Part shown: piece after piece, positions 10,360 to 55,546 of the stretch
How positions within the stretch are numbered: position 1 is the stretch's first letter
Layout of the letters: every line of letters starts with the position of its first letter
Source: a virus
Length of the DNA: 64,000 nt
Virus record (IMG/VR): IMGVR_UViG_3300022902_000007
Strand: one strand, 5' to 3'
The notes under the pieces: model-generated
Database searches by the model: none
What the model saw: the letters and a program-made list of their open reading frames with translations, nothing else
What the model was told of the DNA's origin: nothing
Program-made: the position numbers and the translations under genes

Positions 10360-10396
10360 CCATTAAAAAAGAAGGAGGCCCCCGAAGGGGCCTCCT
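10360..10396 (-). terminator. cUUCGg terminator-like hairpin with conserved TTCTTTTTTAATGG tail (element copy 1)
   Basis: GGAGGCCCC-TTCG-GGGGCCTCC-TTCTTTTTTAATGG. Confidence 0.8.
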
Positions 10397-10410
10397 CGCT
10401 CAGTCTCTGT

Positions 10411-13400
10411 CTACCTCGTGTGCTTGTTGATGGCAGTACACAAGCGACCGGCACCGTTCATCATTGCCTTGCTCGGCTTGGCCCGAGCACGACGCACTGC
10501 GATGGCACTCACCAGACTCTTGCAGTCCGGGCACTCCAGGAACTGGACACCAGTCTCCTCGTAGTGCTTCATGGGCTCTGGGAGGCTGACACTCGTCCCC
10601 TCGATTCTGCCATAGGGCCCGTACATCAGGCTGCTGAGCACCTCGTGGATGTCCTTGAACACAGGCTTACCGTGCTCGTCGGTCTCCTTGAGGAGCATGT
10701 CTGCCATGCTCTCGACAGCCTTGACTCGTTCAGGAGTCATGTAGTCACACCCAGCGTTGACCTGGATGATTCCCAGCTTGTCGAGGACGGGGGATCCTTC
10801 CCAGGCCACTGCTCGGAAGGCACGCTTGATGTGACGCTCGGACAGCTCCTTGTGGGAGCCATACTCACGACTCAGGCTCATCTCTGTTGACCAGATGGTC
10901 AGCAGCTCTTCCCAGGTGAGGTTCTTGAGGCAGTTCCTCAGCTCGACTCGGCAGGCCTCGATGTCACCGTTCCTCTGGTCAGGTTCGAGAGCAGAGCGCA
11001 TGATGCGTCCCACATTCTCACCATACGTCCTGAGGCCAGACTTCTCGTACAGGCCAGGCTCACCATTGACACCACGCTGGTAGGTAGACTCGGGCAGGGC
11101 CATCCTGGGCTCTTCCTTCAGGCCCGCGTACAACAGCACTTCCAGATTCACCGAGAGCTGCTCCGGCATGTTGTCCTTCTTCCAGTCCTGGAACATACCC
11201 CAAGCTTCCCAGGAGCAGTAGTGCACGAGGTTCTGGTTCTCGCCAGTGTACTCCGTACCTACCCAGCCATTGGGATTGATGCGCTTGGAGCGCTCCTGCC
11301 AGGTGTTGGTGTGCTTCCAGGACATGCCCACTGGCCTGCCCTTGTCGTCAGTACCCACGACGTAGCCCAGCTCAGCAGCGGTCCTCTTGACCCACCAGCT
11401 GAACTTGCCAGGGATGAACCCGCCATACTCATCGACATACCAGCTCTCTGGGCCCATGACCATGGAGCGCTTGGTCGAGCCATCCTCTGCAGTAGAATCG
11501 TACTTCCAGCAGCAGCAGGTCTTGCCATTACGTTCGTACTCTTCCACCACTCTCCAGTTGGCCCCGATCATTGCCTTGTCCATGTTGGTGAACAGTGGGT
11601 TGCGCTTGAGCTGATCGATGAACTCCTGGTTGAGGCACATTGCTGCCATCATTGGCATGGTCTCATCCAGAGCCAGGAACATTGCGCAGGCATTCGTCGC
11701 CATGCCCACTGGTCCCTGTCCGTCCACGGCGATCAGCTTGACTCCATCCCAGCTCTTGGTCGGGATCTTGTCCAGGTGACCGTCCGTGTTCTTCTTGGGC
11801 TCGATGAGGTACACATCTTCAGGCTTGCCCAGCAGCGGGATGCGAGACTCGTAGAACCTGATCATTTCTGGATCCCAGGAGCACGCCACTCCATCACCGT
11901 CGTCGTCACCCATGAGCAGATGCTCCATGTCCATTGGGTTCATGAAGATGGTGTTGGACGGGACGATGTAGTCGGTCCTGCCTTTGATCAGCATGTGGCT
12001 GAAGGCCTCCACGATCTCTGCTTCCATCAAGCAGGCTGGCTGCAGGCCGGGAGCACGGGTGATGGCAAGTCTGTCTCCCACCCTGTACCTCCGCTTGCCA
12101 TTGATCTTCATGGCTGCCATGACGACCTCACCGGGCTCCAGGCTGTTGTCCATCACGACCACGGGAGCCTCGCACATGATGCCTGCACCCTGCTGGATGT
12201 GGTAGAGCTGACGCCCCAGTTCATCCATCAGTTGTTCTGACACCTGAGGTACGGTCTTGGGATCGACACCCAGCTTGTCGCAGATGGCACAGACCATGCC
12301 GAGGTTCTCGTCGCGCTTCATGACGATTTCCATGAGCTCATCCATGGTGAGCTTCTCGAAAGCCTCCTCCACCCTGGTCTTGATGAACGCCTGGTTCTCC
12401 GGGGAGTTCTCAGCGAACTGCAGGGCTTGGAAGTTCAGCTTCTGCTGGCGTGGCTTGGTCCAGGTCTGCATGATGCCCAGATGCAGCTTGATATTGGCCG
12501 TGAGACCGTTGGCATGCAGCTTCTTGGCGTCAGCCTTCCTGGTTCCCTTGATCTGCAGTGGGTCGATCCAGATGGCAGGCTTTCCGCTCTTGTCGACGCA
12601 GCGCTCATCACACACCAGGATGCCCTTCACGAAGACCTCACGGCCCAGGTTGAAGGCTCGGATCTGCACGACGTTCCGCTTGTGACGCGGGATGCCCAGC
12701 GCTTCCCAGATGTCGTGTTCCGGATGGATGCAGCCACAGCCGTCACTGCCAGCAGCCTCTCCCATCCAGTTCTCACGAGTCTTGATGATGCAGTCGTAGT
12801 CATCGATGTGCACCATGGGTCCACACAAACCGCTGACGTAGGCACGGAAGTCTACGGCCACCGGGAAGATGTCGGACAGCACCCTGACGACCTCCTTCTT
12901 GATGGCCCACTTGCCCTTGACCAGGATGTAGCCAGCCTTGTGAACGGGAGACCAGAAGTCAGCCGGGATGTCAGGCTGAGAGCCATCCTCTTCCAGCGGC
13001 AGGTTGTTCTGGAACCGGATCACGGGCAGGTCGTACTTCTTGCCCCAGTAGTGGGTGATGAGACCCACGGGGCCGTTGCTCACCACGTAGCCAGCCTTGA
13101 GACGCTCGGTGTTCCCTTTGGCGGGCTTGTAGATATTCACGATCGGCATGCTCCTCCAGCCCTCTGCCTTGGCCCTGGTACGAGCCACACTCTTCAGGCT
13201 AGTGGTGAGGTCGTCGTATTCCTGCAGCTCATCCTCGGGGCTCTTCCCCAGCATCAGTTCCACGAACAGGTCAGCGTACTCACTGATCTTGGTCTCGACG
13301 GTGACGAGCTTGCTCGCCAGGTACTGGGCAGCCCAGCAGGTGGTGTTGTCCATTTGTGCCTCCTTGGCGTTGTTGGACGGGTTGTCGTTGAGGTAGCTCT

Positions 13401-13674
13401 TGATGTAGATTTCGTTAGGCCTTGGACCCAGAGGGGCCATGCCCATGACTGTCTCGAAGTCGCCATCGCCCCGCAGATGGTAGTAGTAGGACCACTCGTC
13501 ACAGGCTCGACAGTGGACATGACCATCTTCGCAAGCGGTATGCACCAGGAACCCATCTCCGTGGGTCGGGCAGTTTTCACTGTGGTCGATGTCGTTGAGT
13601 TCGCAGCACTTACAGTGGCTTCCCCCATAGGGGTTGCCCATGATGCAGGTGTTGGCAGTGTCGGTGATAGCCAT
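10411..13674 (-). CDS. single-chain two-barrel RNA polymerase, YonO/QDE-1(RdRP)-like
   Basis: Ordered motifs SDGCGCI, VVQIRA..VKGIL, AITRAPGL and MGDDDGD (DxDGD at 11893-11907), matching cellular RdRP and SPbeta YonO patterns. Confidence 0.85.
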   Translation of the reverse strand: MAITDTANTCIMGNPYGGSHCKCCELNDIDHSENCPTHGDGFLVHTACEDGHVHCRACDEWSYYYHLRGDGDFETVMGMAPLGPRPNEIYIKSYLNDNPSNNAKEAQMDNTTCWAAQYLASKLVTVETKISEYADLFVELMLGKSPEDELQEYDDLTTSLKSVARTRAKAEGWRSMPIVNIYKPAKGNTERLKAGYVVSNGPVGLITHYWGKKYDLPVIRFQNNLPLEEDGSQPDIPADFWSPVHKAGYILVKGKWAIKKEVVRVLSDIFPVAVDFRAYVSGLCGPMVHIDDYDCIIKTRENWMGEAAGSDGCGCIHPEHDIWEALGIPRHKRNVVQIRAFNLGREVFVKGILVCDERCVDKSGKPAIWIDPLQIKGTRKADAKKLHANGLTANIKLHLGIMQTWTKPRQQKLNFQALQFAENSPENQAFIKTRVEEAFEKLTMDELMEIVMKRDENLGMVCAICDKLGVDPKTVPQVSEQLMDELGRQLYHIQQGAGIMCEAPVVVMDNSLEPGEVVMAAMKINGKRRYRVGDRLAITRAPGLQPACLMEAEIVEAFSHMLIKGRTDYIVPSNTIFMNPMDMEHLLMGDDDGDGVACSWDPEMIRFYESRIPLLGKPEDVYLIEPKKNTDGHLDKIPTKSWDGVKLIAVDGQGPVGMATNACAMFLALDETMPMMAAMCLNQEFIDQLKRNPLFTNMDKAMIGANWRVVEEYERNGKTCCCWKYDSTAEDGSTKRSMVMGPESWYVDEYGGFIPGKFSWWVKRTAAELGYVVGTDDKGRPVGMSWKHTNTWQERSKRINPNGWVGTEYTGENQNLVHYCSWEAWGMFQDWKKDNMPEQLSVNLEVLLYAGLKEEPRMALPESTYQRGVNGEPGLYEKSGLRTYGENVGRIMRSALEPDQRNGDIEACRVELRNCLKNLTWEELLTIWSTEMSLSREYGSHKELSERHIKRAFRAVAWEGSPVLDKLGIIQVNAGCDYMTPERVKAVESMADMLLKETDEHGKPVFKDIHEVLSSLMYGPYGRIEGTSVSLPEPMKHYEETGVQFLECPDCKSLVSAIAVRRARAKPSKAMMNGAGRLCTAINKHTR

Positions 13675-13735
13675 GATTGCCTCCTAAGCATATGGCTTGT
13701 TGATGGTCGTCTCCATACAGAGTGTAGGGATTGGA

Positions 13736-13775
13736 CCATTAAAAAAGAAGGAGCCCGCCCCCGAAGGGGCGGGCT
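13736..13775 (-). terminator. cUUCGg hairpin element copy 2, upstream of RNAP gene
   Basis: AGCCCGCCCC-TTCG-GGGGCGGGCT-CCTTCTTTTTTAATGG. Confidence 0.8.
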
Positions 13776-13789
13776 ATCATGAACACGAG

Positions 13790-15109
13790 CTACTCAGGCA
13801 GCATGTTCACCAGCAGTGCAGCCAGTTGACGCATCTCTGCTGACACGGCCTTGTTGCAGGGTCCTTGGAGTTGATGGATCTTGCCTCTCGTGGCATGGAG
13901 GCTCGCCTTCTCACCATCTGCTCTCCTCAGATGCCAGAGGGTCTCCATCCTCCCATCGTACATGAGATTGTTGATGCAGTTGTTCCAGTAGCCACCGATG
14001 CAATGATGCATCTCTTGGCCTTCCTCCCAGCTCCGAAGTTCTGAGCCGATGAGCTCACATCCTTCAGGCCACTGCATCTGCTTCATGGCTTCGATCTTGG
14101 CTTCATACTTGGTCCGAGCTTCTGCCAGTTTCTTGTTTCTGTTGTCTGCGATCTCTTTGTACCGCTGTTGTCGGATCTCTACGACTCTGTTGTTCTCTTC
14201 AACCAGTCTGTCATGGATTGCCATGAGCTGAGTCCTGGTGAGTCGTTGCTGTGTCCACTCTGGCCTCTCACAGAGGCCCCGCCTGCGATGCATCCGGACA
14301 GTGTCTCTGTACTCCTGCAGCAGCCCCTTCCGCCCATAGTACTGGAGATGGGGGTGGCTCCCGACCAAGGCTGGATCACGCGAGACCATCTGGATATAGA
14401 GAGTCAGGCTGTCTTGACTCATGGGCTCTCTGACCCGAAGGCCAATCGCAGCATTCCTTCCATGTGCGCTCATCTTCAACAAGTTGTTCCTGATCTGGGC
14501 AGGAGTGCCAGGCTTGAGGCGGCGAAGGATGGCCTTGTCCTTCAGCCCCTTCACCATCAGCTTGGCGCAATGCTTGCGGCTCCTCCATCCGCTATTCAAG
14601 ACGAGTCTGAGGGTATTGCCAGTGTTTGTAATCCACTGATATGCTGGGTGCCTACCGTTGGCCAGCAGCCAGTCGAGTCCAGCCCGACCCTGGAAGTTGA
14701 GAACGACAATCGCAGACTTGGAGATAATTGTGAACCCTTTCTCCTTCAGCTCCTCCAGGAGCTTCTTGGTCTTGCTGTTCTCCAACGCCTGCTGGTAGAG
14801 CCAGGCGTAGTGCCTGTAGAGGGCTGCGTTGGGGTCTCGCATCACGGCGCCCCAGGACTTGAACCCGAGGGTCTTGGTGACGATATGGATGGGGTTCGTG
14901 ACCTCAGACTCGTCTTGGCGCAGTTCCTGTGCACCGAGGTAGTCGAACATGTCCAAAGGATTCCAGTGCATCTTGTTCTGCATGAAGTGCCAGCGTCCCT
15001 GGTAGTCTCCGTCGAAGATGATCCAGGTCTTCCTGGTCTTGCAGTTGCTGTGGAAGCAGAAGCCTCCACCGTTGGTGCAGATGTCAGAGAGGGTGCGAGT
15101 GAATGACAT
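13790..15109 (-). CDS. PcfJ-like domain protein (start MSFTRT)
   Basis: C-terminal EEGQEMHHCIGGY...QLQGPCNK motif; AGGAGG upstream of 15109. Confidence 0.75.
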   Translation of the reverse strand: MSFTRTLSDICTNGGGFCFHSNCKTRKTWIIFDGDYQGRWHFMQNKMHWNPLDMFDYLGAQELRQDESEVTNPIHIVTKTLGFKSWGAVMRDPNAALYRHYAWLYQQALENSKTKKLLEELKEKGFTIISKSAIVVLNFQGRAGLDWLLANGRHPAYQWITNTGNTLRLVLNSGWRSRKHCAKLMVKGLKDKAILRRLKPGTPAQIRNNLLKMSAHGRNAAIGLRVREPMSQDSLTLYIQMVSRDPALVGSHPHLQYYGRKGLLQEYRDTVRMHRRRGLCERPEWTQQRLTRTQLMAIHDRLVEENNRVVEIRQQRYKEIADNRNKKLAEARTKYEAKIEAMKQMQWPEGCELIGSELRSWEEGQEMHHCIGGYWNNCINNLMYDGRMETLWHLRRADGEKASLHATRGKIHQLQGPCNKAVSAEMRQLAALLVNMLPE

Positions 15110-15147
15110 GATAGTACCTCCTACATGTCTTGTGTATGGCAGTATTG

Positions 15148-15184
15148 CCACTAAAAAAGAAGGCGGGGCCCCGAAGGGCCCCTC
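15148..15184 (-). terminator. cUUCGg hairpin element copy 3
   Basis: GGGGCCC-TTCG-GGGCCCC-GCCTTCTTTTTTAGTGG. Confidence 0.8.
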
Positions 15185-15188
15185 AGTC

Positions 15189-15365
15189 TCAGTCGCTTCT
15201 CTTGGCATGGTATGTCTCATGCCTTCTCATGTCTGTCAGGTATGGCTTCAGCAGTGCCTTCATGGAGCGCTGCTTCCACCTTGTCCCACAGACTTCACAC
15301 TCGTAGTACAGCCACTTCCTGCCAGTCTTCACCAGCTTGAAGTGACCACTACACCCGCAGGTCAT
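15189..15365 (-). CDS. small zinc-ribbon protein (58 aa, not in ORF track)
   Basis: Manual translation MTCGCSGHFK...YECEVCGTRW...; ATGA overlap with the upstream gene. Confidence 0.6.
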   Translation of the reverse strand: MTCGCSGHFKLVKTGRKWLYYECEVCGTRWKQRSMKALLKPYLTDMRRHETYHAKRSD

Positions 15366-15706
15366 GACTGCCAGACTTCTAGGATCTCATCGATCTCTTC
15401 CTGACTGAGGCCTTGCTCTTCGCAGTAGATCTGAACCAAATCGGTAGCCAGTCTGAAGTCGAGGAAGAAGTAGTCATCTGACATGTGCGCATATTGCTCA
15501 ACCTCGTAGGTTTCGCAATAGGTTCCGTCAGGCCACACGAACAGTCCGTCGTTTGTAGGCTCCGGCGTGTAGGCTTCTTTGACGAAGATCTCCTTGGCCC
15601 TCTCGTACCACTTGTGACACAGGTGACTGAACCACGTGCCGAGGCTGACACCGAGGAGGGCACCGAAGATGCCGAGGATGATCGCGATGATGATGGGAAG
15701 GTCCAT
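15362..15706 (-). CDS. membrane-anchored hypothetical protein
   Basis: AAGGAG upstream; N-terminal TM helix. Confidence 0.7.
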   Translation of the reverse strand: MDLPIIIAIILGIFGALLGVSLGTWFSHLCHKWYERAKEIFVKEAYTPEPTNDGLFVWPDGTYCETYEVEQYAHMSDDYFFLDFRLATDLVQIYCEEQGLSQEEIDEILEVWQS

Positions 15707-15735
15707 CTTGTTTCTCCTTGTATGGACGGAAGTGT

Positions 15736-15773
15736 CCGCTAAAAAAGAAGAAGCGGGCCCCGAAGGGCCCGCT
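15736..15773 (-). terminator. cUUCGg hairpin element copy 4
   Basis: AGCGGGCCC-TTCG-GGGCCCGCT-TCTTCTTTTTTAGCGG. Confidence 0.8.
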
Positions 15774-15788
15774 CAACTCTCTGTCGCT

Positions 15789-16445
15789 CTACGCAGCCAG
15801 ACGTGCCTTCCGCCTGATCTGGACCACGGTCTTACCATGATGCCAGTTGTCGCTGCCGAAGATCGAGGCCCTCAGTCCGAAGTCCTCCACCATCTGCATC
15901 ACGACTTGCTTGTCACTCTGCTGCAGGAGCTGGCTGACGAAGCACCTGACAGGATCTGCCTTGATCTGGTTCTTCAGAGTCCGGGCGAGATCCATGGCCT
16001 TCTCGTACTTGCCATACTTGTCCTGCTGCGCAGCACAGTTGACGTTCTCATCCAGCTCGTGGTGCTGGCCAGTGAACAGGACGGACTTCTTGACCCAGTT
16101 GCCAGTTCCCATGGCCTGGTCGAGTTCTTCCTGACTGACGTTGTCGTACCAGAAGCTGTCATCCATGGCGTGGTCTGGAACTTCTTCCATGCTGTACACG
16201 TACAGTGGCTGGTCGTAGTCTTCCATGCCCTCCAGGTCCATGTCCATAACGAGGCCCAGCATGTCTTCCGAGATGCTCTCACTCGTGGTGCTGACGTTGG
16301 GCTCGAAGTGGAAGCGTACTTGCCGTGGCTGGACGCAGTTGGTGAGGAAGCCCACCAGGAAGGGCATGCTGATCATGCTGATGATGGCGAAGTAGATGGC
16401 GAAGACGCCACCGTTGAAGGTATTGGCGAGGGTGATGTAGTCCAT
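15789..16445 (-). CDS. membrane-anchored acidic hypothetical protein
   Basis: AGGAGG upstream; N-terminal TM helix. Confidence 0.7.
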   Translation of the reverse strand: MDYITLANTFNGGVFAIYFAIISMISMPFLVGFLTNCVQPRQVRFHFEPNVSTTSESISEDMLGLVMDMDLEGMEDYDQPLYVYSMEEVPDHAMDDSFWYDNVSQEELDQAMGTGNWVKKSVLFTGQHHELDENVNCAAQQDKYGKYEKAMDLARTLKNQIKADPVRCFVSQLLQQSDKQVVMQMVEDFGLRASIFGSDNWHHGKTVVQIRRKARLAA

Positions 16446-16479
16446 GATTCCTCCTGTGGATTTGGACTGTTGGTGTCGT

Positions 16480-17168
16480 AGCTGTCTCTCTGCTGTGGGT
16501 GCTGCACCTATCCCAGCTTGGTCTCTCCTGCGGTTTGATCCACTGGATAACCGGGTGCTTCTGTAGTATGAAAGAGCGGTATGTTTAGGCTCGTCCTCAC
16601 GAGTGCTCTATATAGCCGCTATGCCATAGAGCCGAACGCTCCCCATGGAGCAACCCTTCGATTCCGGGCCAGAACCCTGGTAGCCCCAGGTGGCAGCTCC
16701 TGTCCTGTGGAGCCAAGGTCTAAGTGTTGGTTACTACCCGTTCACACACGGGGTCACATGGAGTGATGGTGTCTACTGTTCTCCTACTCGCTCTCACTCA
16801 GAGCCAGCCTGTATTGCTACTCTTGGACACAGACGTCCTCACTTGGGTCTTGCCAAGACAACGTACCTACTACACGGCCCTTTTCTGATAGCAAGCCATC
16901 AGGCCCTTACTGCAGGCGGGCCTACAGACCATGGTTGGGTACAGCACTACCTCTCTACCTATCCCTGGTAGACTCAGGGGATAGAGTGTATTGGCCTTAC
17001 CATCAGCCAATACATGGGGGTTGGACCCACGATAGTCCCTGCACATACGAGTATATGCAGAGGTATGCTCACCACTATGGGCTTGCATACGCATACAGGT
17101 CAGTTTCGTGTCATGACCAGGACTGCGAGGGCTTTCGCTGTGTCATACCATGTGGTATGTGTTGCCAC
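16480..17168 (-). ncRNA. candidate large structured non-coding RNA (~700 nt)
   Basis: No credible ORF; many stem-loops; GNRA loops (GAAA, GCAA) read on the minus strand; boundaries approximate. Confidence 0.55.
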
Positions 17169-17205
17169 TAAATAAAAAGGAGAACCCCTCCGAAGAGGGG
17201 TTCTC
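17165..17205 (-). terminator. cUUCGg hairpin element copy 5
   Basis: GAGAACCCCTC-TTCG-GAGGGGTTCTC-CTTTTTATTTAGTGG. Confidence 0.8.
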
Positions 17206-17335: not shown

Positions 17336-17550
17336 GACTTCTCCTTTTGTGGGGGTGGGCACCGAACGGCAGGGTATCCACCATTTCTACCCAATCAATA
17401 CCAGGTCTACATCCTCTATTTTTCATTCTCGTCCAGTCTTCTCTTCCTTGTTTTCCATATACATATATACCTTTTCCATCTCCTCTCTCTTTTCTATCTT
17501 GTTTCTCTCCCCAAAAATATATTTTTCCTAAATCCGTCCCTATATGGGTT

Positions 17551-17564
17551 TTTTGCTATAATAC
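17551..17564 (+). promoter_or_regulatory. extended -10 type promoter (TGnTATAAT) heading the morphogenesis arm
   Basis: TTTTGCTATAATAC; near-copy TTTTGCTACAATAC at 43172-43185. Confidence 0.55.
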
Positions 17565-35325: not shown

Positions 35326-35347
35326 TCGTTCTTTGTGATACAATCCA

Positions 35348-45540: not shown

Positions 45541-46239
45541 ATGCTCGATATAAATGCAATCCTCGAAACTGCAGGGGGCATCTATCAGACCACTACTCCG
45601 GATGGTCACCAGACGTTCTCCTACAGACTCCTTTCCATGAAGGAGTATAGAGTTTTTGCAGCTTTGAGAGACGGCGGCATATTGCCGCCGCATGAGCTTT
45701 TCACACAAGTATTCGACAGATGTCACTTGGGCAGTTTTGTCCCCGATGCTACCAGGGCGGGAATGATCCCCTCTGTTGGCCAATGGATATTGTGGCTCTC
45801 TGGAGACTGTGAATCACAGACACTCAAACAAGACATTGACCACCTTAGAGAATTGCATCCAGCCGATTCTGTCAATGCATATCAGATGTCTATCATAACC
45901 TCTGTCTTCCCCTATAAGCTAAAAGAGATAGAGGCCTGGCCTCGTACAGAGTTCCATCGTCAGTTCGTAATTGCCGAGAATATCTTGGCGAAGCAAAACC
46001 CTGACTTCGAGCGATTCAATACTTCTCAGATTCTCTCACCCGAACAGGTCGAGAAGCTCAAGCAGAAGCAGAACCCTGCCAACATAGACTTTGCCGCCGA
46101 GAACATGTCGATTCGGAAGGGTATGGGCGCTGGTAACGTAGAGGATATGGAAACTGAAATGGGACAAAAGAGGGCACGGGTGAAAGCTTTGACTCGTGCT
46201 CAGGCAGCAAAAATGGATAGAATACGCCGAGGAGGTTAG
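45541..46239 (+). CDS. second tail assembly chaperone
   Basis: Position before the large tail gene; FSYRLLSMKEY..AG pattern. Confidence 0.55.
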   Translation: MLDINAILETAGGIYQTTTPDGHQTFSYRLLSMKEYRVFAALRDGGILPPHELFTQVFDRCHLGSFVPDATRAGMIPSVGQWILWLSGDCESQTLKQDIDHLRELHPADSVNAYQMSIITSVFPYKLKEIEAWPRTEFHRQFVIAENILAKQNPDFERFNTSQILSPEQVEKLKQKQNPANIDFAAENMSIRKGMGAGNVEDMETEMGQKRARVKALTRAQAAKMDRIRRGG

Positions 46240-46242: not shown

Positions 46243-49200
46243 ATGTCTCCAAAGCGTTGGGATTCCCAAGAGAACGTTCCGTGGAATCCTCCGAGTCATA
46301 GAGCTGGAAAGTTAGCTGTAGCCGCCGCCCTCACAGGCGGCGCTGGTTATGCTGCCATGAACTACCGGTTCTCCAGCGGTACGGCAATGGACTATGCCCA
46401 TGCCGTCATCAGACACACTGGTAACGTCTCACCCTACTCTATCCTAAATACGTTCAGAGGCGCTCAGTGGCTCTCTCCCTGGCTTTCGACAGAAGCCCAG
46501 GGGCTGTCATCGGCGAAGGACCTAAAGCTGTCTGGGAGCCTCCCAGGGGCTCCAGGAGCACGCTATCATCACTGGGCAGAGGAGATGATTGGGGACGATG
46601 CCTCCAAGGAGTGGATTCGCAAGGTAGCTGGTAGTAAGAGATTCCAGCAAGCGGGCTTGGATGTCCAGCCTTTCGAGATGCTGTATTCGAGGGGTGGAAA
46701 AGATACCACTGGTGCTGGCTCACTCTGGGCAAGAGTTCGGGGCGGTGATGCCTGGCAGAAGCTATCTGGCAGTGTTTCGCTATTCGAGGCTACTCCTGTA
46801 GATCCCAAGATAGCAGCGACCAGAGGTATTCAGCAGGAGGCGATGAATCCCGCCCTTACTGGCATCTGGGATGCCATGGGGATGAGTGAGATCTGGGGCA
46901 AGAAGAGCTACGGCAAGTTCAGTCGTGCTTTCAGGACAGTCACTGAAGAAGGCAAGCCTGGAGGGATGTCCAAGTACGTTCCTATCCCTGCATTGCTTGG
47001 CAAAGACATTGATGGGTGGCAAGGAGTCCATAGGAGATTCTCCACATATGTAGGCGGGCCTCTGGCACAGGGCATGGGCCGTATGAATCGTCTGCTCGAA
47101 CAGACGATGGACCAGTTACCGATACTCCGTAACGTGAACTATGCATTCGAGCAACAGTTCAAGACGGGTATGGGAGTTCAGCCAGGCCCTGCTTCGAAAA
47201 TGTTTGCTCGCTTCGGAACACGAGCTGCTGCCGTTGGAGCCATCGGCGTTGGTGTCGCTCAAAGCGATTGGATTCGTAGACACTATGGTGTTGGTGGGCA
47301 TCTTGCCGCGACGGGTCTTACGACTACGGCAATCACGTATGCTGCTCACAAGATGTTCAACAGAACTCCTCTGACCTTTGGAGTAGCTGCTGCTTCTGCT
47401 GTAGGCCAGTTGATTCTTCCAGGTTTCAGAGAAGGCTTGGTTCCCGGCGCGATAACGACTGCATCCAATCTTAGTATTGGCAAGTCGATGGTCGGATCTC
47501 TTACATTCATGAATACTTATAGGAGAACCCTTGAGGGGTTCTTGCCAGGTGCTTCTGATTGGAAGACTTCTGTACTGGCTGGTCTGGGTGTAGCTGGTTT
47601 CTCTTATATGGGCGGGTCCGCTGCGCTCATCAAGAAGCATGGTTATAGAGGAATACTCCCTGCCTCTCTTGAGAAATTCATCGGAGTGGAGGGTGCTGAC
47701 TTTGGCTTGCATGCAGACCCACCGCCAACTATCAGGAGTCTGTATAGAGATGAAGTTCATTCCATAGCTCAAAAGCGTCTCGGAACTGAGTACGGCTCCA
47801 TCATGAGTGAGCGTGGATGGGTAAGTTTCAAGAACCGAAAGATTGATCTGGCTCTACAAAGACAGGGCCAGTCGTCTGGCACTTGGCGTGGCCTCATGGA
47901 TGAGCTGGATCTCGCTTGGGAGACAGCATCTACCAAGTATGGTCAGTTCTTGAGCGGTGAGCTGGAGGGCTATCCTAACCTCAATAATTCTCTGCGTTCT
48001 CGCATTGCGAAGATCAATGGAGAATTCCAGGGAAGAACGGCTTCCGCGACCTCCAAGCGCTTTCTTGCGAAGAGTGGTACCAAAATCTGGCACTCATTCT
48101 TGGGAATGAACCCAGCTGTGGCCTCTCTCAGAGAAGACCTCGGTGTGCTCGGTGCGAAGAGTCATCTTGGCAGGCTTGGCTTGTTGTTTGGTGCTGGTGC
48201 TCTTGGCTGGAGCATGGTTACTGGTGGTCTGCTTGGGTCAATGGAGGACCCCTCTGAGCTTGCTGATATATATTCTGGTCGTCAACACGTTACTGTGAAA
48301 GAAGGTAGGGCCTGGGAAGCTGGCGGTGCGCCATTCGAAGGAAAGAAGCCTCTATATAGTCGTCCTCACAACTTCGCTTTGTTAATGAGCAGAGCAAGGC
48401 AGAAGGCCGTATGGGGAGATGACGAAGACGAGATTAGTCCAGTAAAGAAGTTTTTGCTAAAGAACTTCTCATATGAGCTTGAGAAGAGAACCTATTGGGA
48501 CAGGCCTCATGTTGTCTCCAGCGCTGCTTTCGAGGGCATCCCCGTAATTGGCGGGCTCCTGGCTTCTACAATTGGGCAGATCGTGAAGCCACCGAAGCTT
48601 ATGCATATCTCTGAGTGGGCTCGTCAGGGGCCCAATGGGGAGATCGAGTTTGCGCACAAGCCTGAGTATGGGAACATCTCTTACGAGATGGGAGGGTTGA
48701 CGCCTGGTGCTCCGCACTCCCCATACTCCTCTCCGTTCCAAGCTGGTTATGCTGCATACCAGTACAATGAATTGGCAGGTCTGTTTGGCTGGGCGCTGAA
48801 TACGGCTACCAAGGCTGTGACCGGCTCAGACATGTTTGCCACCCAGCGACCCGTATTGGCATCTGCTGGGGCTATCTCTTCAGCACAGAAGGCATTCTGG
48901 GACCTGGAGCTTGCTGGCGCTCTCGGATTATCAGAAGGTATAAGACGCTTTCTTCCAAGGGACCGGAGCGAAGTAGAAGAATATAATCCACTCATTAACA
49001 ACACTCCCTCATGGCTACCTGACAGATTTGCTTACGGTGATCCGTATCGCTCTGTGGACAGGGGACACGTTCGTCTGCCTGGCCCAGGCTATTCAGCTTT
49101 GCACCCTGAGCTGAAAGGCATGGATCCTGAGAACTATCCACGTATCTATCGCTACATGATTCTTGCTGATGTGGCCAATCAATCCAGAGAGTTCAAGCAG

Positions 49201-50370
49201 ACACGTCAGTCGATGTATCAAAAAAGGGCTTCTGGACAAACAACTGATTCTGAAAATCGGATGATGGACCTGGTTGATTCTCGTCTTGAGAAGATTCAGG
49301 CTTATGATACATTCCAATCCGTACATGACAATGCGATTCAAGTACCTGGGTTATCAAGGGTTAGCCAGGGGATGTGGGCTACTGCCCAGAGAGCTTTCAG
49401 AAAGACTGTCGCTCCAGTGGAGTATCTCACTCCGTTCCGTCCTGTTCAGAAACTTCTGTACGACAGAGACAAGATGGAGGCCTATGAGTGGGAAAGACTA
49501 TACGGCGGCCCCAATGCTTTCTGGGATGCACCTCAGCGTGACTTCCTCAGACCTGCAATGTATTCTGCGTTGCACAATTTAGGCTGGGATGGTAAGCCAC
49601 TATGGAGACAAGAAGTAGATAGAGACAAAGAGTATTTTGACAAGTTGGAATTCGTCAAATGGATGAGAGCTGCAGAGTCGGCCCCGACAGGCCAAGAGCG
49701 GCGGCGAGCGCTTCTCAATGCTCAGAAGACGAAGCATGGTGTGAATCCGCAAGGCAGTCCCCTTTCTATATATGCTTCTCTTCCAGAGTCGGAAAAGAGA
49801 TTCTTTGACGCTTTTACTTTCGCGCCTGAAAAAGACCGTGAGCGTATCAAGGAAATGGTTCCTGCTGATCAGGTTCATCTCTATGAAGCCATCTGGAACA
49901 GAGTTGATTCTGGAGATCGGTCTTTGCATCCGGCATCTCCGACCTCTATTGACGAGGCATATCTCAATGCTCGGTTCCATGATTTACAAGGCTACTTCCA
50001 GCAGAATCCATTGCCGCCAGAAGACTGGTCGGGTTGGAAGAGCAATGTCGAGCTTGATGATATCCAGCTTAGATATGTAGAGAGAATCGGTCGAGATATC
50101 CACGATTACGAGATGTGGGACAGACAGAGTCGGCAGCTCACGAGAAAGCCATACCTGGAAGGCTCCGAAGACTTTTTGTTCGAGGGCCACCCTCTAACTC
50201 GTGACTCCATTGCTTCTCAAATCCATGACATGGGTAGACGTCAATCTGGCCCAGCTCCACAGCTGTCTGTTCATTCAGTTCCCGGCAGCTTGTTTGATAC
50301 ACAGGCCAGGTTCTACCATGACGACAATAGAGAAGACGTGATAGGGAGGTTGTTGAATGCCCTCGAATAA
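46243..50370 (+). CDS. tape-measure-position / ejected virion protein
   Basis: 1375 aa after the chaperones; several Gly/Ala hydrophobic helices. Confidence 0.55.
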   Translation: MSPKRWDSQENVPWNPPSHRAGKLAVAAALTGGAGYAAMNYRFSSGTAMDYAHAVIRHTGNVSPYSILNTFRGAQWLSPWLSTEAQGLSSAKDLKLSGSLPGAPGARYHHWAEEMIGDDASKEWIRKVAGSKRFQQAGLDVQPFEMLYSRGGKDTTGAGSLWARVRGGDAWQKLSGSVSLFEATPVDPKIAATRGIQQEAMNPALTGIWDAMGMSEIWGKKSYGKFSRAFRTVTEEGKPGGMSKYVPIPALLGKDIDGWQGVHRRFSTYVGGPLAQGMGRMNRLLEQTMDQLPILRNVNYAFEQQFKTGMGVQPGPASKMFARFGTRAAAVGAIGVGVAQSDWIRRHYGVGGHLAATGLTTTAITYAAHKMFNRTPLTFGVAAASAVGQLILPGFREGLVPGAITTASNLSIGKSMVGSLTFMNTYRRTLEGFLPGASDWKTSVLAGLGVAGFSYMGGSAALIKKHGYRGILPASLEKFIGVEGADFGLHADPPPTIRSLYRDEVHSIAQKRLGTEYGSIMSERGWVSFKNRKIDLALQRQGQSSGTWRGLMDELDLAWETASTKYGQFLSGELEGYPNLNNSLRSRIAKINGEFQGRTASATSKRFLAKSGTKIWHSFLGMNPAVASLREDLGVLGAKSHLGRLGLLFGAGALGWSMVTGGLLGSMEDPSELADIYSGRQHVTVKEGRAWEAGGAPFEGKKPLYSRPHNFALLMSRARQKAVWGDDEDEISPVKKFLLKNFSYELEKRTYWDRPHVVSSAAFEGIPVIGGLLASTIGQIVKPPKLMHISEWARQGPNGEIEFAHKPEYGNISYEMGGLTPGAPHSPYSSPFQAGYAAYQYNELAGLFGWALNTATKAVTGSDMFATQRPVLASAGAISSAQKAFWDLELAGALGLSEGIRRFLPRDRSEVEEYNPLINNTPSWLPDRFAYGDPYRSVDRGHVRLPGPGYSALHPELKGMDPENYPRIYRYMILADVANQSREFKQTRQSMYQKRASGQTTDSENRMMDLVDSRLEKIQAYDTFQSVHDNAIQVPGLSRVSQGMWATAQRAFRKTVAPVEYLTPFRPVQKLLYDRDKMEAYEWERLYGGPNAFWDAPQRDFLRPAMYSALHNLGWDGKPLWRQEVDRDKEYFDKLEFVKWMRAAESAPTGQERRRALLNAQKTKHGVNPQGSPLSIYASLPESEKRFFDAFTFAPEKDRERIKEMVPADQVHLYEAIWNRVDSGDRSLHPASPTSIDEAYLNARFHDLQGYFQQNPLPPEDWSGWKSNVELDDIQLRYVERIGRDIHDYEMWDRQSRQLTRKPYLEGSEDFLFEGHPLTRDSIASQIHDMGRRQSGPAPQLSVHSVPGSLFDTQARFYHDDNREDVIGRLLNALE

Positions 50371-53300
50371 CTTTGCATACCCGAGAGACACTCAGTCAGA
50401 TGTCTACACAGCCGCTTCATTTTTGAAGAGGGGTGCCAGCATTGTGCCTGCTGCAGTAGGTATCGGTATTGGTGTGAGAGCAGTACTGAGCAATACTCCA
50501 GAAGCCCTCCAGGGGCTTCCTACCAATCACTTAGGAGATGCTGGAGCTCATGTCGGCGGTGCTGTCAGAAAGATGCATCAGTACAAGACGGACAGAGGAA
50601 ACAAAATAGCCGACGAGATTATCGGAAATCTTAGAGAAGGTCTGAGAGACAAGGGGAATCTGAGGCAAGCTCTGCAGTCTTCCCACGAAGAACTAAATGC
50701 GAAGATATCAGCCATCGTTGCAGCCCTGGATGAGCCCAGTATTGCTGGGGACGGCGGAGAGCTTTTACAAAGGAGGAAGGAAGAGCTTCTGTCACTCATG
50801 AGGGAAGAGGGTGATGCAATAGATCAGAAGGCAGCCCAAATGATTGAGGACACTGTCAAGGATATCTATTCAACTGCAACGGCAGATGGTAAGAGAAGAT
50901 TTGGTGAGCATCTGACAAAGTACGAACGACTCCGTAGTCAGCTCGCTCCTCCAGATTTTGTTCACAAGTCTGGTCAATCGTTCTCGACAATAAGTGATAC
51001 AGCCAGTCTCAGCAGCAGAGCCCGTGGTCAGCTCGATTCACTGTCTGGTATGCTCAGAGGCCAAGGTCGTATTGACGTAGTCAAGCACAGTTCTGGTTCG
51101 ACTTACGCTCGTGTATACGCCTCGGATGCTGCGAATGCTCGACATATCATGGACTATCCTCTTCAGTATAGGACCATGGGTGGGGTTCCAATTATTCATA
51201 CAGGTGAGGGGCTTACGACTCCTCGTGCTGCAGATCTGCTTTACACTTCTGCAAGAAATGTGCAAGAAGCCTTTGGCGGCACAGCCAGGGGGGCAACTGT
51301 CACCCGTCAAATGGTACAGGAGAACTTACTGGGTACTGGAAAAGCCTATGATTACAGAGGCTTGCTCAGAGGAGAACTGAGAAGTCGCTTAGGAGCGGCA
51401 AGGGGGAATTTGTCAGCTGTTGAGAACATGAATGAGTTCTCTCGTCAGTATCTGGCCAACATCGACAAGGCTGCTTTCGGCCGAGGAGCTTTTGCCCAAC
51501 ACCTACAAGCCCAGACCGTAAGGACTCATTCCAGAATGACAATCACTGGCTATGAGCAGGTCTCCAAGTCTACAAGGCAGTCTCAAAGGGCAATGCTGAT
51601 GGCAGCCTCTCCTGAAGCTGAGTTGGCTCCTCATGGCTTTGGAGGAGCACGACCTTTCTTCGATCCTGCCGTTGGTCATGAGTTCACTGTGGACCCTACT
51701 GGTAGAATGTCTGCGCAGGTTGGTATCAGGCAATACAAAGGCACTGGAGCAGCGATTACTCGTATCCGGAATCCCTTCCAGACTCGTGCGATGTATCCAG
51801 CCACCATGCGTATCGATCAGGCTCTGAAGAGAACTGAGTCATTCGTCCCCGGAAACAATGTTCCTTCCACTCTTGGTAGCTCTGGTACTTATAGGCATTT
51901 CGGGCAAAACATCGAATGGGCTGATGACATGGTTCGCGGAGGGCTCAACAAGGTTGCTGTGCTGACTCCGGCGAACATGGCGATAGGTCTCGGAGAAGGA
52001 GAGTTCTACACTGGCGGACGATTCGTCGTCGAGTCTCCGATCACGAAGACTGTCTTTGATCCAGGTTCCATGAAGACCCCATCATCGAAGCTCCTCAATA
52101 GACTTGTCAGCGAGGGACAGATCAGCCTTACAAGCGGAGCAGATATCAATCAGTTCTTTGGCGAGACAAAGGGGTTTCTTGGGCTTGGCGGTTCTGGAGA
52201 AACCTATCTCACAAGGAAGCAGGGCCTAATTGGATTGAATCTGACTGCTACGCCGACACAGATTGGAGACAGAAAGGTGTGGGAGATTGTTGGTAGTGGA
52301 CGCTATCTCGAAGACCCAAAGATGTTTGGGATGCATGCGAAGGCTACCTCTCGGCGTATTGGCGCAGCAGGCTTCGGCCGTGTAAGCGGAATGGTTGGTG
52401 CTGATATACTTGGAGAGACAGGTGCACTCGGACTGGGCCGAAGTGATCTCATTGTCGGCCCTGGCAAGATGTTCAAGAAGGGGGCAGGAGGGCTCATTGA
52501 TCAGATGGCCGGAGCCATGGGACTAATGAAGAAGTTCGCTGGTCCCCAAGCTGCTTATCAGGCAGCCACCCAGGGCATGTATGATCCAGCTACTCAGATG
52601 TTCAACAAGTCTACTCTCAATGCGCTGGCTTCTGGCAACACGGGTGTGGTCCTGATGAAGACTGCTGAAAACGTTGCGAGACAGATGGCTCCTATGCAGG
52701 GGCAGATATCACCGAATGTGATGGGCCGAGTATTTGGGAGTCTTCATAGCTACGGTGGTAAGCATGGTGTCAGTCAAGACGCCCTGATGGGTATGCTTGG
52801 GCAACACTTCTCTGCTGATTACATGGCCAAGCTTGGTCCTGCTGTTCAGCAAGGTATCGGCATAACTCCTACGACTCTGTTCTCTGGGCCGACTCTCGGT
52901 TCTTGGGGCTCCACCAGAGCCTCCATGGAGCCTCGCTTTCTCGGCTTGATGCACAAGACGCTAACTGACAGCTTAGGTATGGACAGAAGCTCTGCCAATG
53001 ACATCCTCGCTGGATTCATGGCAAGGAAACCAGGTGCTGCAGATGCATTGAATGCTGCGAAATCTCTCACCAGAATGCAGGCTACCATCTCTGGTGCAAG
53101 ATCGATGCTGGATGAAGACTTGCTTCAGTCCATGAGGAGGGTCGGAGCTAAAGACTTTGCAATGGCTGGCGGCTCAGATGCGGCCATGGAGAAATTCTTG
53201 AGAAGTGTTGGCAGTGATTTTGTACTGGATTTCAGTGGCAATGAGTTTGTTGAGCGAGCCGCTCGCAAAGCTTTCCACAATAATACTTCGTTATTCATTC

Positions 53301-55546
53301 CTGGATCCGAAGCACTCAATCAGATGAACAAGGCCCTCATTAAAGGCCCCTCTGGCAATGTAGAAATCAAACCAGAATTCATCAGGAGAATGGAACGGCT
53401 CAGTGGTGTAGTCAGAGACCTCATGGGTCTCCAGGCAGGAGCCTCTGCGGATCAGATCTCCAGTCATGTCAGCAATCTCACTGGCTGGGCTCATGGAATG
53501 GATCGACTATACGGACAGACTGTTCACAACCTCGGACGTGGGAAGCTTGCTGGCTCGGCTTATGTCAGAGCACAGTCTCTCGTGTTTGGTGAGAATGGCT
53601 CTGCTGACTTCAACATGGAACAGCTGAAGAGAATGCAACAGCAATACACTGGCGCCAAGGGCCATGCTGTCTTCGTTGACTCTCAAGCGTTTCTGTCCAA
53701 GATGAGAGACTCCATATCAGCAGCTGAGAAGGAACTGCTTGGTGCTGGTGAGTTCACTGGGGGAAGAGCCAGAGGCGGAGCTGTCCGTAAGGCTGGCCTT
53801 GAGTATCGTAACTTCTTCCTCGGCTCAGAGAGAGGGATGAGAATGGGCTCAATGAGTCTCATTCAGCGGCACCCGACGTTGACGAATCCTCACATTGCTC
53901 CAACTCAAGTCTATCGTGTCGCTTCCGAGACTGGAACGACTGATGACATATTCAGGAAGTTCGTGCAGACCAGTGCCGGCAAGAAGGCCCTCGCTGAAGT
54001 ACAAGGCAAGGCTGGACAGGGGATCTCTCTTGGAAGTTTCAGTGACATGGCGAAAGTCTGGCAGACGAGGAATAGAGGAGCACGAATCAAGATCAACAAG
54101 TTCTTCCAGTCCATGGCTTCACACGTTACTGATTTCATGACCGAAGAAGGCGGTGGTAAGGTATTCTTCCCGGAGTTTGACGTCAACATTCACTATGCCG
54201 GCGGGAAACTCGAAGGTGTCAACTTCTCTCCTTGGGCTGCAGCTGGCGGTGACCACGATGCAGACATGGCAGGAATGATCTCTGTATTTTCCAAGAAAGG
54301 CCGGGAGCTCACAGGCTCTCCAGCAGCAAGAGAAAAACTTGCTCGTTCTGTCCACAGACAGACCGCCGAGGGCCTGGTCATGAGGAGTCAGATTAGTGAG
54401 GGTATTGCTCGATATGCTGGGGGACTAAGCTCTACTGCAGCCCTTTCGCCATGGGAGCAAGGGCTTGAGTCTGTCTTGAAAGAACAGGCTGGTAAGGATA
54501 TCGGTAAACTTTCTACGACTCTGGGCGCTGTTCGGCAAGGGATCTGGGCTGAAGCCAAGCCAGGCCAAGAACTCATGGCAAGACAAGCAGTCGCGTTTCT
54601 TGGTGGCGCCGAGGAAGCTACACAGATTGCCTCCAAGCACTTGAGTCGTGCTCTTGATGTTGGTAGCGTCTTGAAGGCCACACTCGATCACGCAATGCAA
54701 ACTGGAGAGATTGACAAGTTTGAAAGTCTTGTCAGGAACGTGCTACTCAAAGGCAGTCCTATTCTCGGAGAAGGAATTAGTATTGAAGGTGTCACTGCTG
54801 GGAAGGCTGGCGATATCTCTGCTCGCATGGCAGCAACAGCTGAAAGGAATCTGTCTGGCCAAGCCATTGGGTTCGGCGAAGAGTCCATTGATTTGATTCG
54901 TCGTGCTGCTGTTAGAGCTCAGCAAGAGGGATACAAGGCATCTGTCACGGCGAGGGGTATCGAGTCAGTGGTCGGTAGGCATTCTCCGCAGGCTCAAGTT
55001 GCTGCTGACGCTTTGAGAAATGACTGGAGGCTCATGGCAGCAATGGGTCCGCAGGCGGGGATAGAAGCTGTTGGAGAATTCGCGAGGCAGGTAGGGAATA
55101 GGATCAGTACCTTCAGTAGAGCCATGGACAAGCGTTTCCTCGGGCCTGCTATAGTTGGTATTGGTGCTGCAGTGGGTCTTGGGGCAATGGTCGGGAGTCC
55201 AGGTTACTCTGCTGAGCCATTGATTGCCCCGGGAGAGGTGGTCACTCCGAGAGTCAAAGATGCCGTTGCAGCTGGTAGCCTATTTGATCAAAGTGTCAAG
55301 GCTCCGATGGCAGAGAACTTTGCTTCAAGTGATCGGCTCAACATTACGGATCGTCCAATTAATCCAGGTACTGCATACTTTGAAAGACGAAACGCTTATC
55401 AAATCAGAGGTGGATTGAGGAATCGTTCTGCAATTGGTGAAGTCAGTAATTTCATTAGTGGTATCGGTGGCTCTGCTTCGATTAGAATCAATGATACTCG
55501 CAGGCCATTGACTCCGAATTACATTGACCGAATCACTTCAGAGTAA
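50357..55546 (+). CDS. putative virion RNA polymerase, single chain with beta-like and beta'-like barrel motifs
   Basis: DPKMFGMHAKA and SDLIVGP (beta DK..RHGNKG and vDiilNP-like); GRGKLAGSAY, IQRHPTL and SPWAAAGGDHDADMA (beta' GKR..SGR, NRxPTL and NADFDGD-like), in the expected order. Confidence 0.7.
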   Translation: MPSNNFAYPRDTQSDVYTAASFLKRGASIVPAAVGIGIGVRAVLSNTPEALQGLPTNHLGDAGAHVGGAVRKMHQYKTDRGNKIADEIIGNLREGLRDKGNLRQALQSSHEELNAKISAIVAALDEPSIAGDGGELLQRRKEELLSLMREEGDAIDQKAAQMIEDTVKDIYSTATADGKRRFGEHLTKYERLRSQLAPPDFVHKSGQSFSTISDTASLSSRARGQLDSLSGMLRGQGRIDVVKHSSGSTYARVYASDAANARHIMDYPLQYRTMGGVPIIHTGEGLTTPRAADLLYTSARNVQEAFGGTARGATVTRQMVQENLLGTGKAYDYRGLLRGELRSRLGAARGNLSAVENMNEFSRQYLANIDKAAFGRGAFAQHLQAQTVRTHSRMTITGYEQVSKSTRQSQRAMLMAASPEAELAPHGFGGARPFFDPAVGHEFTVDPTGRMSAQVGIRQYKGTGAAITRIRNPFQTRAMYPATMRIDQALKRTESFVPGNNVPSTLGSSGTYRHFGQNIEWADDMVRGGLNKVAVLTPANMAIGLGEGEFYTGGRFVVESPITKTVFDPGSMKTPSSKLLNRLVSEGQISLTSGADINQFFGETKGFLGLGGSGETYLTRKQGLIGLNLTATPTQIGDRKVWEIVGSGRYLEDPKMFGMHAKATSRRIGAAGFGRVSGMVGADILGETGALGLGRSDLIVGPGKMFKKGAGGLIDQMAGAMGLMKKFAGPQAAYQAATQGMYDPATQMFNKSTLNALASGNTGVVLMKTAENVARQMAPMQGQISPNVMGRVFGSLHSYGGKHGVSQDALMGMLGQHFSADYMAKLGPAVQQGIGITPTTLFSGPTLGSWGSTRASMEPRFLGLMHKTLTDSLGMDRSSANDILAGFMARKPGAADALNAAKSLTRMQATISGARSMLDEDLLQSMRRVGAKDFAMAGGSDAAMEKFLRSVGSDFVLDFSGNEFVERAARKAFHNNTSLFIPGSEALNQMNKALIKGPSGNVEIKPEFIRRMERLSGVVRDLMGLQAGASADQISSHVSNLTGWAHGMDRLYGQTVHNLGRGKLAGSAYVRAQSLVFGENGSADFNMEQLKRMQQQYTGAKGHAVFVDSQAFLSKMRDSISAAEKELLGAGEFTGGRARGGAVRKAGLEYRNFFLGSERGMRMGSMSLIQRHPTLTNPHIAPTQVYRVASETGTTDDIFRKFVQTSAGKKALAEVQGKAGQGISLGSFSDMAKVWQTRNRGARIKINKFFQSMASHVTDFMTEEGGGKVFFPEFDVNIHYAGGKLEGVNFSPWAAAGGDHDADMAGMISVFSKKGRELTGSPAAREKLARSVHRQTAEGLVMRSQISEGIARYAGGLSSTAALSPWEQGLESVLKEQAGKDIGKLSTTLGAVRQGIWAEAKPGQELMARQAVAFLGGAEEATQIASKHLSRALDVGSVLKATLDHAMQTGEIDKFESLVRNVLLKGSPILGEGISIEGVTAGKAGDISARMAATAERNLSGQAIGFGEESIDLIRRAAVRAQQEGYKASVTARGIESVVGRHSPQAQVAADALRNDWRLMAAMGPQAGIEAVGEFARQVGNRISTFSRAMDKRFLGPAIVGIGAAVGLGAMVGSPGYSAEPLIAPGEVVTPRVKDAVAAGSLFDQSVKAPMAENFASSDRLNITDRPINPGTAYFERRNAYQIRGGLRNRSAIGEVSNFISGIGGSASIRINDTRRPLTPNYIDRITSE

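What the first reader, a model, noticed from the sequence alone, without database searches (positions are those of the whole stretch)
10360..55546. Candidate transcription cascade using two different two-barrel RNA polymerases
Seen: two dissimilar large proteins each carry a two-barrel RNAP catalytic loop. One is in the early arm (10411-13674, DDDGD) and one in the tail module (50357-55546, DHDAD). The early arm is punctuated by five conserved elements and shows no obvious sigma70 promoter. Known: N4 uses a virion RNAP then an early-encoded RNAP but both are T7-like, crAss-like phi14:2 injects a single-chain two-barrel RNAP, and SPbeta YonO is a single-chain late RNAP. Inference: a packaged beta/beta'-like enzyme transcribes the early cassettes, including the YonO-like gene, whose product transcribes later genes. 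I do not know of this pairing being described, but cannot check the literature.
Basis: partly seen in the sequence, partly recalled or inferred. Interest (0 to 1): 0.93.

Follow-up and report, generated by a model that had tools for sequence, protein, structure and literature searches.

The report
Myovirus with two own RNA polymerases
An uncultured contractile-tailed phage encodes two very different single-chain RNA polymerases, one in the tail tape-measure position and one among its first-expressed genes, and most likely uses them in sequence to start infection, as shown by experiment so far only in the unrelated Thermus phage P23-45.

Summary
Observation confirmed. Both proteins are predicted single-chain two-barrel polymerases. 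The 1087-aa early protein is QDE-1/RdRP-like (Pfam E 5e-12; Foldseek E 2e-14). The 1729-aa protein has no library hit, but its core folds confidently (pLDDT 91), matches beta and beta-prime chains in order, and keeps invariant catalytic Asp/Lys in a family of 76 clusters. It sits in the tape-measure slot defined by cultured phage 0305phi8-36, where that slot's protein is in the virion. Both genes co-occur in 2/2 complete relatives. The five elements are terminator + T-tract + A(R)YGG + 5' hairpin units, conserved in seven genomes; a matrix built from them picks out the mapped virion-RNAP promoters of P23-45. A second element class follows the early RNAP gene. Corrections: the pairing is already described (P23-45 gp96/gp64, PMC10770324); the early enzyme is not YonO by profile; late genes may use host RNAP. 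New here: myovirus lineage, unannotated virion-RNAP family, shared promoter grammar, and a cultured test candidate (ME3 gp36). Nothing is shown by experiment. This scan noted the same system before on other DNA, including probably both relatives I used.

The parts
50357..55546 (+). 1729-aa candidate virion RNA polymerase in the tape-measure slot; hydrophobic helices at residues 26-44 and 1593-1611 flank the polymerase core
   Evidence: slot
51707..54853 (+). two-barrel core (residues 451-1499): beta-like half then beta-prime-like half
   Evidence: AlphaFold pLDDT 90.9, pTM 0.90; VIA top 20 rows all two-barrel RNAP chains
52319..52342 (+). invariant K655 and K662, equivalent to the two lysines of the beta barrel (equivalence inferred from motif and fold)
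54251..54265 (+). catalytic loop D1299-x-D1301-x-D1303
10411..13674 (-). 1087-aa non-virion RNA polymerase candidate of the QDE-1/RdRP-like single-chain group
   Evidence: Pfam PF05183 E 5.4e-12; Foldseek QDE-1 E 1.9e-14; VIA Z 18.5 RDR2, 16.3 QDE-1, 15.0 P74 gp62
11893..11907 (-). catalytic loop D590-x-D592-G-D594
17165..17205 (-). class A element 1: terminator hairpin, T-tract, A(R)YGG start
15736..15774 (-). class A element 2
15148..15184 (-). class A element 3
13736..13775 (-). class A element 4, directly upstream of the early RNAP gene
10360..10397 (-). class A element 5, directly downstream of the early RNAP gene; last of the array
685..10290 (-). region of class B elements: 12 GC-rich intergenic hairpins without U-tract, 8 followed by ATGA within 14 nt; candidate signals of the non-virion RNAP
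   Evidence: (binomial p about 1e-7, pattern chosen after looking)
17352..17410 (-). conserved non-coding element at the early/late divergence point, just upstream of the first class A site in relatives; candidate genome end or packaging site
   Evidence: present in 7 of 7 genomes
13790..16445 (-). pre-early cassettes (218 aa, 114 aa, PcfJ-like 439 aa) with third-position GC 0.72-0.82 against 0.42-0.53 in genes at 1-6 kb
44779..46239 (+). two tail chaperone genes (positional; first one matches ME3_33, E 5e-6)
46243..50370 (+). 1375-aa virion protein, orthologue of 0305phi8-36 gp145 and ME3_35; not the tape measure of that lineage
   Evidence: profile E 2.5e-81 and 1.9e-91
55550..63985 (+). 2811-aa baseplate hub with M23 peptidase, orthologue of gp147 and ME3_37
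17554..17562 (+). extended -10 type site ahead of the first late gene; similar intergenic sites at 35336, 42142, 43175

Best explanation
A three-tier cascade like that of P23-45. (1) The 1729-aa protein is a tape-measure-slot virion protein with an internal two-barrel RNA polymerase [fold predicted; slot shown by synteny; packaging inferred]. On injection its hydrophobic ends stay in the envelope and the core refolds inside the cell [inferred]. (2) It starts at the T-tract/A(R)YGG motif of each class A element and makes short, mostly one-gene transcripts with a protective 5' hairpin, each ended by the terminator whose U-tract overlaps the next promoter [architecture shown; assignment to this enzyme inferred from P23-45]. 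These cassettes lie next to the probable genome end, use host-like GC-rich codons and include the gene of the second polymerase. (3) The QDE-1-like 1087-aa enzyme then transcribes the early/middle arm, probably via class B elements [inferred, about 0.55]. (4) Late structural genes are probably read by host sigma70 RNAP at extended -10 promoters, or else by the second enzyme [weak, about 0.5].
For: Folds and invariant catalytic residues. Both genes in the window and in 2 of 2 complete relatives, with full synteny. Slot: p1375 = gp145 (E 2.5e-81), p2811 = gp147, so the gene between them = gp146, the assigned tape measure found in virions by mass spectrometry. C-terminal hydrophobic helix in 37 of 39 full-length homologues, none in the core. 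Class A motif in 7 genomes, only around the early RNAP gene and on its strand; conservation runs past the U-tract; the first copy has no terminator in four relatives (fold energies -4 to -7); the GG pairs in a 5' hairpin in 33 of 43 sites against a shuffle maximum of 29. P23-45 mapped starts follow an AT-rich motif that overlaps terminators and continues with TGG in 9 of 13 sites; my family-trained matrix puts 8 mapped P23-45 promoters among its top 10 hits in that 10-kb region. 0305phi8-36, whose tape measure has no DxDxD, has no such array. No sigma70 region 2 gene in either complete relative.
Against: Foldseek E-values for the large protein against solved structures are only 2.5e-3 or weaker and VIA Z is about 10. 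The reverse matrix (P23-45-trained) ranks the window's elements only 9th-10th or lower. Since both genes always co-occur, class A cannot be assigned to one enzyme by distribution within the family. In the window itself all five sites have a good terminator, and the 40-aa gene upstream of site 1 has no class A promoter. ME3, with a DxDxD protein in the same slot, shows no class A array. Class B differs in sequence between the window and relatives. Extended -10 sites are not enriched in relatives. A folded 1050-residue core cannot pass a tail tube as such (own knowledge), so storage and refolding are unexplained.
Confidence: 0.66

Rival explanations
1. The large protein is a packaged polymerase, but class A elements are read by the 1087-aa enzyme (or by both), and the packaged enzyme uses some other start, for instance the conserved element at the genome end.
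For: Class A sites were found by their closeness to the early RNAP gene and both genes co-occur; in P23-45 the non-virion enzyme also covers the pre-early region; ME3 has a slot protein with DxDxD but no class A array.
Against: Motif and terminator overlap match the P23-45 virion-enzyme promoters; 0305phi8-36 has the RdRP-like enzyme but neither a tape-measure DxDxD nor the array; a second class exists downstream.
Confidence: 0.13
2. Class A elements are only host intrinsic terminators or RNA processing and recombination sites; early genes are read by host RNAP, and the tail enzyme serves mainly to pull DNA in or to prime.
For: All five window copies are textbook terminators; 33 of 43 family sites have an upstream hairpin below -12 kcal/mol.
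Against: Conserved bases after the U-tract, first copies without terminator, 5' hairpins; no sigma70 excess; a terminator directly ahead of a gene needs a restart.
Confidence: 0.1
3. The tail protein is a structural tape measure carrying a dead polymerase fold.
For: It diverges faster than neighbours (24-44% identity against 38-58% for the 1375-aa protein); the loop reads DHDAD, not DFDGD.
Against: All three Asp, both Lys and R-x-P are invariant at about 21% mean column identity; Ala, Ser and others at the fourth loop position recur in the family.
Confidence: 0.05
4. The 1087-aa enzyme acts on RNA templates (RdRP) or, like YonO, is the late-gene polymerase.
For: Nearest solved folds are QDE-1 and RDR2; YonO transcribes SPbeta late genes (PMC5467207); no phage sigma factor found.
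Against: Characterised phage members of this group (gp64, YonO) are DNA-dependent; class B elements are on the early/middle strand only; extended -10 sites on the late arm.
Confidence: 0.2

Closest known systems
Thermus phage P23-45 gp96 (tape-measure-fused virion RNAP) plus gp64 (non-virion RNAP); Chaban et al. 2024, PMC10770324
   Same: Two single-chain two-barrel enzymes, one in the tape-measure position, one in a short pre-early block beside the early/late divergence; AT-rich start motif overlapping terminators and followed by TGG; second signal class downstream; host RNAP for late genes.
   Different: P23-45 is a siphovirus with a 5002-aa tape measure and N-terminal RNAP; here a myovirus, 1729 aa, RNAP in the middle between hydrophobic helices. 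No sequence or profile match to gp96 or gp64. In P23-45 the two enzymes cluster together as an old duplication; here the early one is much closer to QDE-1/RDR2 and the tail one is about equally far from all groups.
Bacillus phage 0305phi8-36 (gp99 RdRP-like RNAP, gp145-gp147 tail module; PMC2147016) and Acinetobacter phage vB_AbaM_ME3
   Same: Same morphogenesis lineage and gene order; gp99 belongs to Pfam PF05183 and has candidate phage-specific promoters; ME3_36 sits in the same slot, has R-x-P and GGDHDQD and is a structural hit.
   Different: gp146 has no DxDxD; ME3 has no PF05183 match and no class A array; neither slot protein matches the family by sequence.
SPbeta YonO (PMC5467207)
   Same: Single-chain two-barrel phage enzyme of the RdRP-related group.
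   Different: No significant profile match; YonO is a late-gene enzyme of a temperate siphovirus with no virion RNAP described.
crAss-like phi14:2 gp66; N4 vRNAP plus RNAPII; phiKZ/AR9 vRNAP plus nvRNAP (PMC7598289, PMC7824862)
   Same: Injected polymerase starts infection; N4 and phiKZ also hand over to a second phage enzyme.
   Different: N4 enzymes are T7-like; phiKZ enzymes are multisubunit; gp66 is not among the 50 best structural rows for the tail enzyme and is not encoded in a myovirus tape-measure slot.

Membership tests
Two-barrel RNA polymerase superfamily (1729-aa protein) | two double-psi beta-barrels in order, beta-like then beta-prime-like | tested here: met
   model residues 9-400 align to beta chains (Z 8-10.6), 463-1020 to beta-prime chains (Z 7.4-8.4), 614-883 to isolated DPBBs; full-length to QDE-1, RDR2, gp62, gp96; prediction only
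Two-barrel RNA polymerase superfamily (1729-aa protein) | R-x-P then DxDxD; two lysines in the other barrel | tested here: met
Two-barrel RNA polymerase superfamily (1087-aa protein) | paired barrels and DxDGD loop | tested here: met
Two-barrel RNA polymerase superfamily (both) | template-dependent RNA synthesis | not testable with these tools
   needs purified protein
P23-45-type system | RNAP encoded as part of the tape-measure protein | tested here: inconclusive
   slot matches gp146 of 0305phi8-36; no tape-measure Pfam/PHROG hit; ESM feature hits to tape measures only 0.85-0.87; ruler function untested
P23-45-type system | presence in the virion | not testable with these tools
   only the positional counterpart gp146 has mass spectrometry
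P23-45-type system | second single-chain two-barrel RNAP inside the pre-early block | tested here: met
P23-45-type system | AT-rich start motif overlapping terminators, restricted to the pre-early block | tested here: met
   similar, not identical; starts not mapped here
gp96 or gp64 protein families | sequence or profile similarity | tested here: not met
P23-45-type system | two enzymes related by duplication | tested here: inconclusive
   HHalign 0.5%; different nearest folds; no structure-based tree made
YonO family | profile similarity to SPbeta YonO beyond the catalytic loop | tested here: not met
   A4 profile against YonO -0.5 bits; no tblastn hit in phage records
YonO family | transcribes late genes | not testable with these tools
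   indirect signs point to early/middle
RdRP-like (PF05183) single-chain enzymes | score above Pfam cut-off | tested here: met
   45.6 bits against 23.8

The most novel reading that the evidence does not exclude
A wide, unannotated lineage of 0305phi8-36/ME3-like myoviruses injects a new family of single-chain RNA polymerase as the middle of its tape-measure protein, pairs it with a QDE-1-like enzyme of separate origin, and uses the same T-tract/ATGG promoter grammar as the unrelated P23-45 enzyme, so tape-measure RNAP fusion and its promoter are either very old or arose twice; the RNAP domain was lost or never gained in 0305phi8-36 and is kept in cultured ME3.
Probability: 0.45. Interest if true: 0.78.

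Novelty: new variant of a known kind. Interest (0 to 1): 0.62.

Why it matters
If true, the P23-45 strategy is not an oddity of one hot-spring siphovirus but runs through a large myovirus lineage whose tail polymerase no library annotates. It gives a defined short promoter for a factor-free single-chain polymerase, raises the question how a 1050-residue enzyme crosses a contractile tail tube, and points to a cultured phage (ME3 gp36) in which packaging and activity can be tested. It also adds a close phage relative of eukaryotic RNAi polymerases.

Tried and rejected
No whole genome held for the window; metagenome loci could not be searched as genomes, so co-occurrence rests on three genomes. 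Sequence searches of the tail protein against Pfam, PHROG, NCBIfam, PDB and GenBank phages gave nothing. Atlas fold search unavailable. Rfam found only two tRNAs. I first took the 1375-aa gene for the tape measure; rejected because it is the gp145 orthologue; its function stays unassigned. ME3_309 (798 aa) matches a BFVD hit only by length and has no DxDxD, so it is not counted as a second ME3 polymerase. gp66 of phi14:2 is not listed among the tail enzyme's structural rows, which does not exclude kinship. No complex prediction was sent, as no binding is claimed.

Full report
Setting. The window is part of a phage contig of about 150 kb with a minus-strand early arm (1-17.3 kb) and a plus-strand morphogenesis arm: terminase, portal, major head protein, sheath, tube paralogues. 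The only cultured tblastn relative of the sheath is Acinetobacter phage ME3, whose genes are annotated from Bacillus phage 0305phi8-36. So this is a myovirus of the 0305phi8-36/ME3 lineage.

Early enzyme. ORF 10411-13674 (-) scores above the Pfam cut-off for RdRP PF05183. Thirteen homologues keep the DxDGD loop and R-x-P. The model (pLDDT 69, core 80-90) matches QDE-1 at E 1.9e-14 and by VIA RDR2 (Z 18.5, rmsd 4.8, 504 aligned), QDE-1 (16.3), P74-26 gp62 (15.0), gp96 (11.7). Its profile does not recognise YonO, gp64 or 0305phi8-36 gp99 beyond noise. It is an RdRP-like single-chain enzyme; YonO-like is right only in that loose sense.

Tail enzyme. ORF 50357-55546 has no hit in Pfam, PHROG, NCBIfam, PDB or GenBank phages, but 76 clusters at 50% identity are related. 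At 21% mean column identity the three Asp, R1171-x-P1173, K655, K662, R485, Q488 and G1062-K1063 stay fixed or nearly so; DHDAD is a variant of the family's DFDGD. The core model (pLDDT 90.9, pTM 0.90) gives only RNAP chains in the Foldseek top 50, at weak E-values, and only two-barrel enzymes in the VIA top 20: beta chains over the first 400 residues, beta-prime chains over 463-1020, single-chain enzymes over the whole (Z 7-10.6, tied). Hydrophobic helices flank the core across the family (C-terminal 37/39, N-terminal 24/39, core 0/39). The two window enzymes are not alignable.

Where it sits. The order chaperone, chaperone, 1375 aa, RNAP, M23 hub is fixed even in distant homologues. The 1375-aa protein is the orthologue of 0305phi8-36 gp145 and the hub of gp147, so the RNAP gene stands where gp146 stands, the protein assigned as tape measure and found in virions by mass spectrometry (PMC2147016). 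gp146 itself has no DxDxD. ME3_36, 1603 aa in the same slot, has R-x-P and GGDHDQD, the same two hydrophobic ends, and a 1603-residue ME3 entry is a structural hit of my model, though no sequence similarity is detectable. Packaging of the window protein is therefore likely but inferred.

Co-occurrence. Six IMG/VR loci carry the early enzyme; both complete genomes among them (161 and 183.5 kb) also carry the tail enzyme, with whole-arm synteny. Neither has a sigma70 region 2 gene.

Signals. The five elements are hairpin, T-tract, A(R)YGG, small hairpin. The same unit occurs 43 times in seven genomes, always on the early RNAP strand within a few kb of the divergence point. A matrix trained without the window ranks the five first. 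Three things argue for a promoter and not only a terminator: conservation past the U-tract, first copies without a terminator, and pairing of the GG in a 5' hairpin (33/43, shuffle maximum 29). P23-45 has mapped starts directly after an AT-rich motif that overlaps terminators, followed by TGG in 9 of 13 cases; my family matrix finds 8 of those promoters in its top 10 hits in that region, while 0305phi8-36 and ME3 show no array. The reverse test is weaker. Genes in this block have GC-rich third positions. Downstream, a second class of intergenic hairpins lacks U-tracts; relatives have their own strand-biased version. On the late arm four of five extended -10 matches are intergenic, but relatives show no enrichment, so host transcription of late genes is only a hint.

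Known or new. The cascade was shown for P23-45 (PMC10770324), whose authors also list many viruses with two RNAP genes; ME3 and the Microcystis phages are not in that list. Iyer et al. 2021 mention only the YonO-like enzyme for 0305phi8-36 (PMC7824862). I found no paper on a myovirus tape-measure RNAP in the searches run, which cover open-licence papers only. The finding works like P23-45 but its proteins are not members of the gp96, gp64 or YonO families by profile. Earlier notes of this scan report the same system on other genomes, probably including my two complete relatives; they are not independent support, and I had the P23-45 comparison and the motif before reading them.

Verdict. Real, well supported in silico, a new variant of a known kind. 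Shown: folds as predicted, motifs, synteny, signal architecture. Inferred: packaging, activity, which enzyme reads which signal. Confidence in the cascade 0.66; interest 0.62.

Noticed in passing
window 46243-50370; L002 1117-10014; L001 4618-10014: The 1375-aa virion protein (gp145 family) is more conserved than the polymerase next to it and its homologue in L002 appears to carry five inteins, L001 one, all in the conserved C-terminal half. Inteins usually mark an active site, yet no family or fold was found.
   Followed up: partly
window 17352-17410 (-); L047 about 560-620: Conserved element at the early/late divergence in 7 of 7 relatives; its ACCAGGT part also appears at the same point in ME3. 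Candidate terminus or packaging site.
   Followed up: partly
G002, G003, L014, L016 early/middle arm: Hairpins with loop core T[GTC]AC lie almost only on the early RNAP strand (10/1, 14/3, 13/3, 9/1); absent from the window, whose class B differs.
   Followed up: partly
window 16460-17160 (-): About 700 bases without a credible gene right after class A site 1, no Rfam hit; relatives have a similar gap. Possible pre-early non-coding RNA.
   Followed up: no
window 17213-17335 (-): 40-aa very basic ORF with a good ribosome-binding site between the conserved element and class A site 1; not seen at this place in relatives.
   Followed up: no
window 19107-22271 and 22265-23224 (+): 1054-aa protein with an N-terminal DnaQ-like motif and a staphylococcal nuclease domain, and a Gly/Ala-rich 319-aa protein, conserved between small and large terminase genes; possible further ejected proteins.
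   Followed up: no
window 6900-16450 (-): Third-position GC of 0.64-0.82 in the first-expressed genes against about 0.5 elsewhere suggests a GC-rich host; G002 and G003 show the same GC peak.
   Followed up: partly
window 1-1747, 4792-5352, 5869-6207 (-): Four paralogues built from a 23-residue repeat (69-nt period).
   Followed up: no
window 8808-8895 (-): tRNA-Lys(UUU) of 88 nt with a long variable arm; tRNA-Arg(UCU) at 7765-7839.
   Followed up: no
window 42193-43146 (+): 317-aa zinc-finger/HNH-like gene inserted between tail tube genes, with its own extended -10 type site; absent at this place in G002 and G003.
   Followed up: no
BFVD rows: Microcystis phages Ma-LMM01 and MaMV-DC and a siphovirus 'minor tail protein' also give structural hits to the tail polymerase core (E 1e-8 to 2e-3); not checked for catalytic loops.
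   Followed up: no
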